From the NCBI RefSeq assembly GCF_009914755.1, contig NC_060940.1: a stretch of 64,000 bases of DNA; one strand, given 5' to 3'. This document shows positions 1-5,118 of the stretch, piece after piece (the stretch's first letter is position 1; each line of letters begins with the position of its first letter). The notes beneath the pieces were generated by a model, which worked only from the letters and a program-made list of their open reading frames with translations, was not told where the DNA came from and did no database searches. The translations under genes were made by a program, and so were the position numbers. This DNA is from the human T2T-CHM13v2.0 reference genome, Homo sapiens.

Positions 1-543
1 GTATTTTCTGTACTTAGGAACAATGTCAGTGAAGACAAAATACGGATTTTGACAATATAGTTTAGTGGGGTTGATTTTTGAGGCTGAAATATTAAAAGCC
101 AATGTACCTGTGGTAAATTAAAAGGTATATATGTTATCTATCAGTAAAAGAGGAAGTGGCCAGAATATTATTACAAATTACATTCTATTAACAAAGTTTC
201 TTTGCTACCTGTTGATATGAAAAATAAATATTGACCTAATGCCAGAACTTTACAATATGGGTACACCTTTCCCTTTCTGGTTAACAAAGTAGGATGGAAG
301 GTTGTCAAATTCAAAAGCGTGTATGCAATTTGAAGAGTGGGGAAAGTATGAGCACAAACATTGAATTGTTTGTATTATTAATCAACTGAAGTTTATTTCT
401 GTTCATTTCATGTGACTTTTTTGTTTATTAGACCAAAGAGTTTAAGATTTATTATAAAAAAGGTCTTTCCTTTTTTAGGCTTTTAAGTTTTATTTTTGAG
501 AAGTAAAGGCTGTAGAACTGACAAATTTGAATAACCCTAAAAC

Positions 544-1297
<754 letters not shown>

Positions 1298-1619
1298 TAG
1301 TTTTTTTTTTAATTTTACTTTATTATGTTACTCTTATACCGCTGAAAGGTGGATGGCAAACGTGAGACAAAAGAAAGGTTAATCGGAAAGTGTTTTTTTG
1401 TTGTTATTTTCCATGTTTTATAATCAATGGGTGCAGTAGGTTCCAAAGAATAGACAGTATTGCAAACCAAACAAAATACAGAACAGTTTCTTTTTCTTTT
1501 TCTTTCCACTTCAGGGTTGAAGAGGGATCCACAGTGGTTGGCAAATTAAACCAAATTGGGAAAGCAAAAAAGATTGTTTTTTTGTTTGTTTTTTTTGTTT
1601 GTTTGTTTGTTTTTTGTGG

Positions 1620-1662
1620 AAAAAAAAAAACGAGAGGTTTAAAACCTCTCGTTTTTTTTTTT
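1620..1662. repeat. Near-perfect 21-bp inverted repeat (hairpin/cruciform)
   Basis: A11-CGAGAGGTTT-a-AAACCTCTCG-T11. Confidence 0.9.
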
Positions 1663-2472
1663 TTAAGAAGCCAGTTTGAATTTCTGTATTCTTTTGATAA
1701 CAAAGTGAATAACCAAACAGGATTTCCTGTTCAATATCTGGCCCCTGTTCACTGAAAGCATAAATACCAAAATACTGACATTCAGAGTCTGCTATTTGTC
1801 CCACTGGGATCTCCCGCAACATAGCCACAGGGTCATATTTGTTAATTTTTTTTTTAATACCAGTTACAAATGCTTTAGTCTTTGGAGTAAGATGTTGCAT
1901 ATTTTGCCTTTCATTTTCCCCTTCGACGATAACGCTTAGGCCCCTCACCAAACTCTCAGTAACCATGGTAACTGTATACAAACCCATGCTGGCGATGGTG
2001 GTGAATGGTAAGTGGTGAAGTCCATCTGCCGTTTCACGTATTTAGTGCTGATATATCTATATACATATATATATATACCACGTGAATTTTTTTGACTTGT
2101 CGTATTAAGTTTTCTTGATGCTCTATTTTTTTGGATATTGGTACGCCTGTAATTGAGTGTACGTTCTAAGCTAGCCTGGGAGGCACTGACTGGATTGAGT
2201 TATGACCGGTGCACATCTTACTCAGATTGTTAACTCCATATTGTGTTAAACAATGCACCCTCTCTTTTATCCTTTTGTTAGCTGTGACGTTAAAGCTTGA
2301 ATGATTTTGTTAATTCTTGCGATGTAAAAGGCTCTTGTTCCAAGTGTTGAATGCTAGATGTTGCTTTCCTGATGGTTCTTTCCTCCTAAAGTGTTGCACA
2401 CGGCTAAGACTTGTTTGTCCCTTTTTTTGACATTTATGTTCCCTTGTACCTTGTCTCTTCTCTCTTCTCCAC

Positions 2473-2794
2473 TGCATGCTCCTTCATATGAATTTTATTT
2501 TATGTTTAAAAAATATTTCTTGTTTCTGTGTTACCATGGAGTACACGCATGCTTTTAAATCTTCAATTATGCAGAATCTTTTAATTTGCTTTTACTGTCC
2601 CTTTATTAAACACTCTTAATGATATGACATTGCTTTATTGAAATGATTTGTAAGTTAAACGGTTATGAAGTAAATGTAATTTTAAAAATGTATGATTTTG
2701 TTATGCACCTACTGCCTTTTATAAATTAAAATGCATTTTACTTTTTAGTTTTCTTTTTTAATAAGTAATCACGGTCATAATGCATGCAACTAAT
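2473..2794 (+). promoter_or_regulatory. RBFOX motifs plus ACTAAT (branch point/QKI-like) upstream of the 61-nt exon
   Basis: TGCATG 2473-2478, GCATG 2547-2551, TGCATG 2781-2786, ACTAAT 2789-2794. Confidence 0.65.
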
Positions 2795-2849
2795 TGAATT
2801 GGGAGCTGGCCCTAGAATATGTGCTTACTTGAGTTTTCTATGTACATAG

Positions 2850-2910
2850 GTAAATAATGCCACAGCACGTGTAATGACAAATAAAAAGACCGTCAACCCT
2901 TATACAAATG
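2850..2910 (+). CDS. RBFOX1: RBFOX1 coding exon, 61 nt (VNNATARVMTNKKTVNPYTN-G), end of RRM
   Basis: tacatAG acceptor, ATG|GTAAGT donor; phase 0 to 1; continues the RRM in frame from 1135. Confidence 0.97.
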
Positions 2911-5118
2911 GTAAGTAGAGATTGGCCTTTTACAAGAAATTCTCTCTACTTCTGACTCTTTAAGTAATTTAACCAGAGATTCTATTACAACAAGCTGTGT
3001 TTGCCTGGGCATTGACACTGTGTTTTTACTACTGACCTGCTACAGTGAACCACCTACATCAATAAGATCATTTTCACAACAAAGGCAAATGGAGTGTTCA
3101 GGTTAAGTGTGCCTGCCCTTCTTCCCTTCTTTCTAGAATAACTCTGTTTGGGATTGAGATGCACTAATTATTTGGAAATTAGTTTGCTAATTTCATTGGT
3201 TATTTCAGTAAGTTGAGGGGAGAATTGGAAGTTTAGTTTGTTTGCTTTTCAATCCCATCTGCTCGTTGATTACTAATCATTCCTGGACGTGCAGTCACGT
3301 AATTTATTCTGTCTTTGAGTCTTCTCCAGAGAGATTAGTCATTTGAAGTGGTTTAGAGGATACCTCATGTCTGAATTCCACAGGGTTAGCAGAATGTGTG
3401 AGTGGGTTATTTGTTCTTCTCTGGGCTGCTCAGTGTTATTTTGGGCTAGTTGAGAATGTTGCTTTGTATTACAGACCCCATCAGGACAATGCAATTTCTG
3501 TTTTTATCAATAAAACTTCTGAAAACTCCTCCTAAAAAGCATTCACATATGAGTTATTAAAAATGTTTGAACATTTTGATTCTTTAATTCCTCTCAAAAT
3601 AAGTATCTCTTAAGATATATGGGGAAGAAACCTGCCACTGTGTTAATCACATACTTAATTGTACCAAAAATTAAAGCAATGCAGTAAGTTAAAGTATATA
3701 CACATGGTAGAATATTATACCCATTAAAATGAGCAGGATAAGGACCATAAAGGGTCTCATAATTAAAAAATTGACATAAATGTTTGTCGCATAACTTTAG
3801 ATAAATGATGATAATATGCCAGAATGCTAATGGTTGTGCTGAATTGTGAGACTGGCAAACATTTTTTCTTTGATTCAGGTTCATAAAAATAGTATAACTT
3901 TATTACATCAAAAGGAGATATGTGGAATTTTATACTTCTAAAGTTTTAATTGCACATGGAGATACGGATTTTTTAAAGTAAAAAAAAAATTAAAAGAAAC
4001 GTTAAAGACAAGTCTAAAATATATTTTAAATAACCCCATTGCCACCCTGGTTTCCTACCTCCCCCCTCACAGGAAGCCGCTATTACAGATTGTTGTCTAT
4101 AGTTTTATTTTGCGTATTCATGCCTATATATGTAGTAGATGTTCATTTATAGTATTCATAGTGTTGTATACATTTTTATGTGAATGATATAAGGATACAC
4201 CTGGCATTTTTAATTGGGTTTTTTAATAAATCTATATAGAGTTCCTTTAATTTAATATATACAGATTAGACTAATTCATTTCAGTGGTTATGTAATATTA
4301 CACAAAACAGATAAATAGGTTCAGTCAGAACTAAATACTGATTGTTTATCACAATAAAAGAAAACAATGATCTAGCAATGTATTATCATTTGGTAGTTTT
4401 GATTTTCCTGTTTCTTTTGCCAGTGACTACCAATTTGACAGTCAGTTTGCTCTTAATTTTAAAAGGGGCATCATTCAACAGGGACATACCGTCTATATAA
4501 TAGGGCTCTAAGTTGAAAGACCAGAAGAATTACCTATTCTGCTATTTTTCTCAGCTTTGTCAACCAAGACATGCCCTTAAATGGTATAGACTATTTTCAC
4601 ACCAGACTTTAAATGCCCAGTGCTGAACTGAAGCAAACCTCTGATTTATATGTCATACAGCCTTTCCAGTTGGGTAAAAGTAATGACTCTGAAACTTGCC
4701 AGATTTCATATATGGTGACATCAACCTGACGGTTGGGCATAGTCTTTAATTATGAAGTTGCACTGGTGCCCAGGCACATGTGTGCTTGTCTACATATGAC
4801 TAGCTGCTCATGTGTGCTGAGTGAGAAACTGGAGCGAGAAAAGCCAAATATTTCATAAGCCATGTGCATGTATATTTATTTTAAAAGAGTTATTGATCAA
4901 TTTTATGACCAGGGACTGAAAACTAGACCTGTAGGATTTTTTTAACACAATTCAAAGCCCATTTATAAATAACTAGCCTTTCTGGAATATGAGGTATGCA
5001 TTATGTGAGGCATTTTAAGTGCACTGGACACAAATGAAGTCCTATAAAGAGGACATCATTATCCCTATTTTAGAGGTGCAACATTGAGGCTAGAGAAGAT
5101 GAAGAAATTAATTAAGAC

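What the first reader, a model, noticed from the sequence alone, without database searches (positions are those of the whole stretch)
1940..2007. Candidate hidden 68-nt exon with a perfect donor: poison exon, or start of an RRM-less isoform
Seen: a pyrimidine-rich stretch (1902-1924) and cttAG at 1938-1939, then a consensus donor AATG|GTAAGT at 2007/2008, the same ending as the true next exon (AATG|GTAAGT at 2910). (a) Inserted between 1135 and 2850 it reads APHQTLSNHGNCIQTHAGDGGE then TG|G TAA, an immediate PTC and thus an NMD poison exon. The downstream TGCATG/GCATG (2473, 2547, 2781) are in the position where RBFOX activates inclusion. (b) It also has a strong-Kozak ACCATGG (ATG 1965), giving MVTVYKPMLAMVVN-G in phase 1. 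That joins exon 12756 in frame (VNG-WKLNP mirrors TNG-WKLNP) and would make a C-terminal-domain-only protein. Established: cryptic NMD exons flanking the RRM exon have been reported for the paralog Rbfox2. Inference: an equivalent second feedback arm exists in RBFOX1. I cannot tell whether it is already annotated.
Basis: partly seen in the sequence, partly recalled or inferred. Interest (0 to 1): 0.8.

Follow-up and report, generated by a model that had tools for sequence, protein, structure and literature searches.

The report
RBFOX1 counterpart of RBFOX2 poison exon
A 68-base stretch inside an RBFOX1 intron is the sister copy of a proven self-destruct ("poison") exon of the related gene RBFOX2, so it very probably lets brain cells dial RBFOX1 down, though its actual use in RBFOX1 messages was not checked here.

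Summary
The described signals are all there: pyrimidine tract 1902-1924, AG 1938-39, a 68-nt body 1940-2007 and a strong donor (ATG|GTAAGT) at 2007/2008. On their own they prove little: 20 of 36 strong donors in the window have an exon-like partner. What makes this one different is homology. Window 1881-2000 is the only intronic, non-repeat block shared with the RBFOX2 gene (E 8e-10; 0 of 200 resampled introns reach its score). It lies in the same intron, 804 vs 815 nt after the RRM exon. The RBFOX2 block is bounded by an AG exactly 74 nt upstream of the same GGTAAGTG donor. That is the size published for human RBFOX2 cryptic exon 6*, an NMD target induced by Rbfox3 (Dredge & Jensen 2011). Inclusion in RBFOX1 shifts the frame and stops at TAA 2851-2853. 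Reading (a), a poison exon, is therefore supported by homology. Junction use, NMD sensitivity and Rbfox control are inferred, not shown. Reading (b), an RRM-less isoform from ATG 1965, is not supported: its frame is not conserved in RBFOX2 and there are no promoter features. I found no paper describing this exon for RBFOX1. Its annotation status is unknown.

The parts
1881..1939 (+). Conserved upstream intronic flank: pyrimidine tract 1902-1924, AG-free zone 1892-1937, acceptor AG 1938-1939
   Evidence: 72% identical columns to RBFOX2 over -60..-1, against 50% over -120..-61. AG positions listed. Pyrimidines in -22..-3 are 13 of 20, equal to the true exon at 2850.
1940..2007 (+). Candidate 68-nt cassette (poison) exon, homologue of RBFOX2 exon 6*
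   Evidence: sequence, length, frame. (68% identical columns to RBFOX2; core stretches identical). (804 vs 815 nt after the RRM exon).
2008..2015 (+). 5' splice site GTAAGTGG
   Evidence: 7 of 8 bases identical to RBFOX2. U1 duplex -10.2 kcal/mol, rank 11 of 3465. RBFOX2 donor -10.1.
2020..2039 (+). Downstream intronic element shared with RBFOX2, displaced there by about 61 nt
   Evidence: An identical 11-mer starts 13 nt after the donor in RBFOX1 and 74 nt after it in RBFOX2.
2210..2226 (+). 17-nt intronic element identical in RBFOX2, colinear
   Evidence: blastn 17 of 17, E 0.01; sequences shown.
2851..2853 (+). Premature TAA reached after inclusion of the 68-nt exon
   Evidence: Translation. 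It lies 57 nt before the 2910 junction, with further junctions downstream (hub gene table).
1960..2007 (+). Alternative 48-nt version using AG 1958-1959; it would open with an in-frame TAA
   Evidence: Sequence; acceptor features. The AG is not conserved in RBFOX2.
1043..1135 (+). 93-nt RRM exon (context); TGCATG at 921, 1008, 1034 upstream and at 1137 inside its donor
   Evidence: Hub gene table; motif positions. RBFOX2 has TGCATG just upstream of this exon and inside its donor; the RBFOX3 donor does not.
2473..2786 (+). Distal downstream (T)GCATG motifs at 2473, 2547, 2781
   Evidence: not positionally conserved in RBFOX2.

Best explanation
Window 1940-2007 is a conserved alternative cassette exon of RBFOX1 that couples splicing to nonsense-mediated decay (a poison exon). 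It is the RBFOX1 counterpart of the experimentally shown RBFOX2 exon 6*. Shown here: it has usable splice signals. It lies in the same intron at the same distance from the RRM exon. It is the only non-repeat intronic block that the two genes still share around that exon. Its inclusion shifts the frame by 2 and ends the reading frame at TAA 2851-2853, far upstream of later exon junctions. That holds whether it follows the 93-nt RRM exon or replaces it, because both enter in phase 0. Inferred from RBFOX2 and not shown for RBFOX1: the exon is normally skipped. Nuclear Rbfox proteins raise its inclusion, directly or as a by-product of repressing the RRM exon through the TGCATG cluster. The resulting mRNA is then degraded, giving auto- and cross-regulatory negative feedback on RBFOX1 dosage.
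For: (1) Signals are present. (2) A genome-wide search with window 1880-2060 found 2 places: itself and chr22 at 73% identity, so it is not a repeat family. (3) Window 1-4000 against 10 kb of RBFOX2 gave only the RRM exon, the 61-nt exon, this block (E 8e-10) and one 17-mer. The best intron-to-intron HSP is 56.3 bits, against mean 26.7, sd 2.7 and max 41.0 in 200 resampled introns; 0 of 200 reach it. (4) The conservation profile is exon-shaped: 50%, 72%, 68%, 7 of 8, then 46%. (5) The RBFOX2 block has an AG exactly 74 nt upstream of the shared donor. Of 10 AG-N74-GT segments in that intron, it alone has a strong donor (-10.1, others -4.2 or weaker) and a 15 of 15 pyrimidine tract. Dredge & Jensen report exon 6* as 74 nt in human cells, derived from intron 6, enhanced by nuclear Rbfox3 and stabilised by emetine. 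(6) Gaps in the alignment are not multiples of three, and the RBFOX2 copy carries an in-frame TGA. Conservation is therefore at the nucleotide level, not protein-coding. (7) Two preprints report lower Rbfox1 mRNA after Rbfox3 or Rbfox2 overexpression, the first 'likely through splicing' (passages read).
Against: No expression data were available, so no junction read, cDNA or NMD-inhibition result for RBFOX1 was seen. The acceptor RBFOX2 apparently uses (the AG 74 nt upstream of its donor) is absent in RBFOX1. RBFOX1 keeps only the second AG, and 14 mixed bases separate its pyrimidine tract from that AG. The supplementary tables of a brain AS-NMD study (PMC13078869) list other Rbfox1/RBFOX1 exons, but my coordinate-prefix searches returned no entry at the estimated mouse or human position of this exon. 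Lim et al. 2020 supplements do not contain RBFOX1 at all. A preprint that lists RBFOX1 among genes with brain-specific poison exons could not detect 'the respective' exon in iPSC-derived neurons at any stage; which exon it meant is in a supplement I could not open. RBFOX3 has no counterpart: the nhmmer profile gave no hit and none of the 7 block-derived motifs tried is present. The assignment of the RBFOX2 block to published exon 6* rests on size and position; the paper's sequence figure is not held.
Confidence: 0.7

Rival explanations
1. The block is a conserved intronic regulatory element that is not productively included in RBFOX1. It could be a relic or 'decoy' of the ancestral exon: it binds U1/U2AF or other factors to tune splicing or retention of this intron and use of the RRM exon, but yields little or no exon-containing mRNA.
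For: RBFOX1 lacks the upstream AG that RBFOX2 uses, and its acceptor is less tidy. Conserved elements extend beyond the exon at 2020-2039 and 2210-2226. The exon is absent from the AS-NMD tables I could search. The RBFOX1 poison exon tested in one preprint was not detected in iPSC-derived neurons.
Against: Both splice sites are intact. The donor is as strong as in RBFOX2 (-10.2 vs -10.1). The acceptor's pyrimidine content equals that of a constitutive exon of the same gene. The frame-shifting length class (2 mod 3) is kept (68 here, 74 in human RBFOX2 by my assignment and by the paper). NMD isoforms are expected to be scarce in steady-state data.
Confidence: 0.18
2. Reading (b): the segment is the first coding exon of an RRM-less isoform that starts at ATG 1965 and splices 2007>12756.
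For: ACCATGG context; the frame joins exon 12756.
Against: It needs an intronic promoter in a region of 35% GC with 6 CpG against 16.8 expected, plus skipping of the 61-nt exon. Joined to exon 2850 it stops after 16 codons. In RBFOX2 the homologous ATG has a pyrimidine at -3 and leaves 41 nt, so the frame is not conserved. The block's indels are not multiples of three.
Confidence: 0.03
3. A DNA-level conserved non-coding element (transcriptional enhancer) that only resembles an exon.
For: RBFOX1 introns are rich in conserved non-coding sequence (my general knowledge). RefSeq marks enhancers elsewhere in the window (hub table).
Against: The conservation is strand-specific in meaning: pyrimidine tract and AG on one edge, GGTAAGTG on the other. 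It is colinear with, and equidistant from, the RRM exon in both genes, and the RBFOX2 copy is a demonstrated exon.
Confidence: 0.05
4. A chance pseudoexon of no function.
For: Exon-like signal pairs are common: 20 of 36 strong donors have a partner.
Against: Paralogue conservation: 0 of 200 resamples reach the real score, and only 2 places match in the genome.
Confidence: 0.02
5. A structured RNA, a small RNA gene or a minus-strand coding sequence.
For: A 176-aa stop-free frame on the minus strand, 1514-2041.
Against: Rfam at E up to 1 gives nothing over 1880-2040; all 21 matches lie over or beside the 1620-1662 hairpin (span 1487-1748) and score below gathering. Fold z-scores are -0.06 (RBFOX1) and +0.80 (RBFOX2), with different structures. 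The frame has 0 Pfam families and is the 4th longest of 53 frames of 100 aa or more in the window. Indels against RBFOX2 break any frame.
Confidence: 0.02

Closest known systems
RBFOX2 cryptic exon 6* (Dredge & Jensen 2011, PLoS One 6:e21585; PMC3126832; passages and section 10 read)
   Same: Same intron (after the 93-nt RRM exon) and the same distance from that exon (804 vs 815 nt). Alignable sequence with the same GGTAAGTG donor. Length class 2 mod 3. Premature stops at the start of the next exon.
   Different: 68 nt instead of 74 (human) or 71 (mouse). RBFOX1 lacks the upstream AG apparently used in RBFOX2. The RBFOX1 copy is open in frame 0, while the human RBFOX2 copy, as I assign it, has an internal TGA. 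Inclusion, NMD sensitivity and Rbfox3 induction are shown for Rbfox2 only.
RBFOX2 cryptic exon 5* (41 nt, intron 5; same paper)
   Same: Second arm of the same NMD circuit flanking the RRM exon.
   Different: No RBFOX1 counterpart was detected. The upstream introns (about 8.3 vs 9.7 kb) share only Alu-like repeats, the upstream exon and the RRM-exon flank at E of 0.01 or better. The sequence of 5* was not available to me.
Rbfox autoregulation by skipping of the RRM exon (dominant-negative delta-RRM isoform; Damianov & Black 2010, known to me only through citing passages; the paper is not held)
   Same: Same gene region. TGCATG lies close upstream of the exon and inside its donor in RBFOX1 and RBFOX2. 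In the RBFOX2 experiments the 6* product splices exon 5 directly to 6*.
   Different: Exon skipping keeps the frame and makes a protein. The 68-nt exon destroys the frame.
Conserved poison exons of splicing regulators (SR and hnRNP genes; Ni 2007 and Lareau 2007 as cited in Jangi 2014) and the Rbfox-promoted Ptbp1 exon 9N (Ruan et al. preprint)
   Same: A conserved non-coding cassette exon in an RNA-binding-protein gene that triggers NMD and is controlled by splicing factors.
   Different: For Ptbp1 9N, conserved proximal downstream GCAUG motifs were shown to be required. Here no GCATG lies within 460 nt of the donor.

Membership tests
AS-NMD (poison) cassette exon | Bounded by a usable 3' splice site (pyrimidine tract + AG) and 5' splice site | tested here: met
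   AG 1938-39 after a tract with 21 of 23 pyrimidines and a 46-nt AG-free zone. Donor rank 11 of 3465. These are signals only, not proof of use.
AS-NMD (poison) cassette exon | Inclusion creates a stop codon more than about 50 nt upstream of a later exon junction | tested here: met
   68 nt is 2 mod 3. TAA at 2851-2853 lies 57 nt before the 2910 junction, and more junctions follow (hub table). The 48-nt variant opens with TAA.
AS-NMD (poison) cassette exon | Exon-containing mRNA exists (junction reads or cDNA) | not testable with these tools
   No transcript data are held. No entry at the estimated coordinates was returned by my prefix searches of the supplementary tables of PMC13078869, and RBFOX1 is absent from those of PMC7347940.
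AS-NMD (poison) cassette exon | The isoform rises when NMD or translation is blocked | not testable with these tools
   Shown only for Rbfox2 6* (emetine).
RBFOX2 exon 6* homologue | Sequence homology and same intron position | tested here: met
   E 8e-10; 0 of 200 resamples reach the score; 804 vs 815 nt after the RRM exon.
RBFOX2 exon 6* homologue | The RBFOX2 block really is the published exon 6* | tested here: met
   An AG lies exactly 74 nt upstream of the donor. It is the only 1 of 10 AG-N74-GT segments with a strong donor and a 15 of 15 pyrimidine tract. The published size is 74 nt, in intron 6. The published sequence figure was not visible, so this is a strong inference.
RBFOX2 exon 6* homologue | Inclusion enhanced by nuclear Rbfox protein | not testable with these tools
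   Only indirect reports exist: Rbfox1 mRNA falls after Rbfox3 or Rbfox2 overexpression. The relevant supplementary figure was closed.
Rbfox-activated exon (downstream GCAUG enhancer) | Conserved (U)GCAUG in the proximal downstream intron | tested here: not met
   The nearest downstream GCATG is 466 nt after the donor (715 nt in RBFOX2) and is not aligned. Distal action is not excluded.
Alternative first exon / internal-start isoform (reading b) | Promoter-like sequence, and a start codon and frame conserved in the paralogue | tested here: not met
   GC 35%, CpG 6 against 16.8 expected. The RBFOX2 ATG leaves 41 nt, not 43. CAGE data are not available.
Ultraconserved-element poison exon | Near-perfect identity across mammals | not testable with these tools
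   No other vertebrate genome is held. Only the human paralogues were compared.

The most novel reading that the evidence does not exclude
The 6* module is an ancient poison exon inherited by both RBFOX1 and RBFOX2 from their common ancestor gene and missing from RBFOX3. RBFOX3, and high total Rbfox activity, could then throttle RBFOX1 and RBFOX2 through the same conserved switch while RBFOX3 escapes it. Because RBFOX1 deletions are linked to autism and epilepsy, the 68-nt exon would also be a concrete splice-switching target for raising RBFOX1 output.
Probability: 0.5. Interest if true: 0.6.

Novelty: new member of a known kind. Interest (0 to 1): 0.45.

Why it matters
RBFOX1 is a master neuronal and muscle splicing regulator, and its pathogenic variants and deletions are linked to autism, intellectual disability and epilepsy (review passages). 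A real poison exon next to the RRM exon would explain several reports. Rbfox1 mRNA falls when Rbfox3 or Rbfox2 is raised. Rbfox paralogues also compensate for one another. It would extend the RBFOX2 circuit of Dredge & Jensen to the disease gene of the family. It would also give a defined exon for splice-switching oligonucleotides of the kind surveyed in PMC13078869 and PMC7347940, neither of which lists it. The paralogue comparison also pins down conserved flanking elements (1881-1939, 2020-2039, 2210-2226) that can be tested as its control sites.

Tried and rejected
Structured RNA or small RNA:
- Rfam at E up to 1 gave 21 sub-threshold matches, all over or beside the 1620-1662 hairpin and none over 1880-2040.
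- Folding gave z-scores of -0.06 and +0.80.

Minus-strand coding:
- A 176-aa open frame at 1514-2041 has 0 Pfam families.
- It is the 4th longest of 53 frames of 100 aa or more.

Repeat family:
- Only 2 genomic places match.

RBFOX3 counterpart:
- blastn found only the two coding exons.
- The nhmmer profile found nothing in the 1517-nt intron (after a format error).
- None of the 7 block-derived motifs tried occurs there.

Exon 5* counterpart:
- None was found in 11 kb upstream.

Literature (8 of 10 searches used):
- No paper in the library describes an NMD exon between the RRM exon and the 61-nt exon of RBFOX1.
- No paper pairs Rbfox1 with a 68-nt exon (0 relevant of 2 listed).

Papers not held:
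- Damianov & Black 2010, Yan 2015, Ruan 2025 J Neurosci, and the Conboy review under the id I recalled.

- Earlier findings of this scan were not open.

Technical:
- The first shuffle script timed out. It was replaced by first-order Markov resampling.

Full report
**Observation.** The sequence is as described. Positions 1902-1924 hold 21 pyrimidines in 23. AG is at 1938-1939, the body 1940-2007 is 68 nt, and the donor reads ATG|GTAAGT with G at 2008. That 9-mer occurs only twice in the 64,000-base window, here and at the true donor 2910/2911. GTAAGT occurs 17 times. Spliced between 1135 and 2850, the segment is read through for 22 codons, then TG+G, then TAA at 2851-2853. That stop is 57 nt before the next junction, and more junctions follow. 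No combination of skipping the neighbouring 93-, 61- or 54-nt exons restores the frame (my arithmetic on the lengths).

**Are the signals alone more than chance? No.**
- By duplex energy with the U1 5' end (a short motif recalled from memory), the donor scores -10.2 kcal/mol, rank 11 of 3465 GT sites.
- It is better than 3 of the 5 annotated donors in the window, which rank 358, 9, 114, 624 and 2.
- But 36 sites score -9.0 or better, and 20 of those 36 have an AG behind a 13-of-15 pyrimidine tract 30-300 nt upstream.
- Pseudoexon-like pairs are therefore common here.
- The acceptor is middling: 13 of 20 pyrimidines in -22..-3, equal to the constitutive exon at 2850. The tract is separated from the AG by 14 mixed bases, and the zone 1892-1937 is free of AG.

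**Paralogue evidence.** The held assembly is searchable.
- Window 1880-2060 matches only two places in 3.1 Gb: itself and chr22:36227126-36227246 on the minus strand, at 73% identity.
- The 31-residue RRM exon finds the three RBFOX genes on chr16, chr22 (100%) and chr17 (87%).
- With 10 kb fetched around each, window 1-4000 against RBFOX2 gives four hits: the RRM exon, the 61-nt exon, the block 1881-2000 (E 8e-10) and a 17-mer at 2210-2226 (E 0.01).
- Intron against intron, the best HSP is 56.3 bits. In 200 first-order Markov resamples of the RBFOX2 intron the mean is 26.7, sd 2.7 and max 41.0, so 0 of 200 reach it.
- The block starts 804 nt after the RRM exon in RBFOX1 and 815 nt after it in RBFOX2.
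- Identity is exon-shaped: 50% at -120..-61, 72% at -60..-1, 68% in the body, 7 of 8 at donor +1..+8, and 46% at +9..+68.
- An 11-mer shared just downstream is displaced by about 61 nt in RBFOX2.
- Gaps are not multiples of three, and the RBFOX2 copy has an in-frame TGA. What is conserved is therefore RNA signal, not protein.
- Across the upstream introns (about 8.3 and 9.7 kb) only Alu-like repeats, the upstream exon and the RRM-exon flank align.
- RBFOX3 has no counterpart. blastn finds only the two exons, the nhmmer profile gives no hit, and none of the 7 block-derived motifs tried occurs in its 1517-nt, 65% GC intron.

**Link to the published exon.** Dredge & Jensen 2011 (PMC3126832; passages and section 10 read) describe cryptic exon 6* from Rbfox2 intron 6.
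- It is 74 nt in human 293T cells and 71 nt in mouse.
- Nuclear Rbfox3 raises it to 20-25% of product.
- It accumulates further with emetine and puts premature stops into exon 7.
- A 41-nt exon 5* lies in intron 5.
- In the RBFOX2 block an AG lies exactly 74 nt upstream of the shared donor. Among the 10 AG-N74-GT segments of that intron, it alone has a strong donor (-10.1 kcal/mol, next best -4.2) and a 15-of-15 pyrimidine tract.
- I therefore equate the block with exon 6*. The paper's sequence figure is not held, so this step is a strong inference.
- One discrepancy: as I assign it, the human exon already contains an in-frame TGA, whereas the paper speaks of stops in exon 7. Either way the message is a predicted NMD target.

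**Differences from RBFOX2.** RBFOX1 lacks the upstream AG and keeps only the AG homologous to the second one in RBFOX2. With other small indels this gives 68 nt, the same 2-mod-3 class as 74 and 71. A second AG at 1958-59 would give a 48-nt exon that opens with TAA, but it is not conserved in RBFOX2.

**Reading (b).** From ATG 1965 the 43 remaining bases join exon 12756 in frame, but joined to exon 2850 the frame stops.
- In RBFOX2 the homologous ATG has a pyrimidine at -3 and leaves 41 bases, so neither the context nor the frame is conserved.
- Region 1400-1960 is 35% GC with 6 CpG against 16.8 expected.
- The shared AATG ending of the two RBFOX1 exons is not seen in RBFOX2.
- I rate (b) at about 3%.

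**Regulation.**
They are unaligned with those of RBFOX2, which lie 715 and 1009 nt after its donor.
- They are only mildly enriched: 4 in 1714 nt against about 2.1 expected from 78 in 64,000.
- What both genes share is TGCATG close upstream of the RRM exon and inside its donor.
- In the published experiments the 6* product joins exon 5 directly to 6*.
- I therefore favour a model in which Rbfox proteins repress the RRM exon and the 68-nt exon is used in its place or after it. This step is inferred.
- Independent hints exist. Rbfox3 expression lowered Rbfox1 and Rbfox2 mRNA 'likely through splicing' (preprint 10.1101/2024.09.09.612108, passages; the figure is in a closed supplement). Rbfox2 overexpression lowered Rbfox1 (preprint 10.1101/2024.09.20.614071, passage).

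**Other explanations tested.** The block is not a known RNA family and not unusually structured. It is not a repeat. It is not a minus-strand gene.

**Is it known?**
- Eight literature searches and the passages read found the Rbfox2 exons repeatedly, but no statement of an RBFOX1 equivalent. The passages read include a 2026 review of NMD in neurodevelopment.
- A preprint lists RBFOX1 among genes with brain-specific poison exons and failed to detect 'the respective' exon in iPSC-derived neurons.
- The tables of PMC13078869 list other Rbfox1/RBFOX1 exons, but my coordinate-prefix searches returned nothing at the estimated position.
- The supplements of PMC7347940 do not contain RBFOX1.

**Verdict.** The stretch is a real, conserved feature and the RBFOX1 member of a known kind. 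That it is homologous to RBFOX2 exon 6* I hold at about 0.95. That it works as a poison exon in vivo I hold at about 0.7. Use in mRNA, NMD sensitivity and Rbfox control remain to be shown.

Noticed in passing
window 1620-1662: A perfect 21-nt inverted repeat with a 1-nt spacer, each arm an A/T run plus a 10-base core. It is unique in the genome apart from itself. It draws only sub-threshold Rfam matches and is not shared with RBFOX2. Function unknown.
   Followed up: partly
window 921-1142: TGCATG at 921, 1008 and 1034 upstream of the RRM exon, and inside its donor at 1137 (GTGCATG). RBFOX2 has TGCATG just upstream of the exon and the same donor; the RBFOX3 donor lacks the motif. This fits the known autoregulatory skipping of this exon.
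   Followed up: partly
window 2020-2039 and 2210-2226: Two short intronic elements downstream of the candidate exon are shared with RBFOX2. One is an 11-mer plus similar bases, displaced by about 61 nt in RBFOX2. The other is an identical 17-mer. They are candidate splicing control sites; their binding factors are unknown.
   Followed up: partly
window 1965-1975: An internal 5' splice-site-like ATG|GTAACT is conserved base for base in RBFOX2. Its U1 duplex is weak, -5.0 kcal/mol in both genes. It could be an alternative donor, a decoy or an exonic control element.
   Followed up: no
window 1514-2041, minus strand: A 176-codon stop-free frame overlaps the candidate exon. It is the 4th longest of 53 frames of 100 aa or more in the window and has no Pfam match. 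I judge it a composition effect.
   Followed up: yes
L013 plus window 1-1042 against L014/L011: No RBFOX1 counterpart of RBFOX2 exon 5* was detected in the upstream intron. Only Alu-like repeats, the upstream exon and the RRM-exon flank align.
   Followed up: partly
L012 (chr17, RBFOX3): The equivalent RBFOX3 intron is 1517 nt and 65% GC, against 34-36% in RBFOX1 and RBFOX2, and lacks the whole module.
   Followed up: yes
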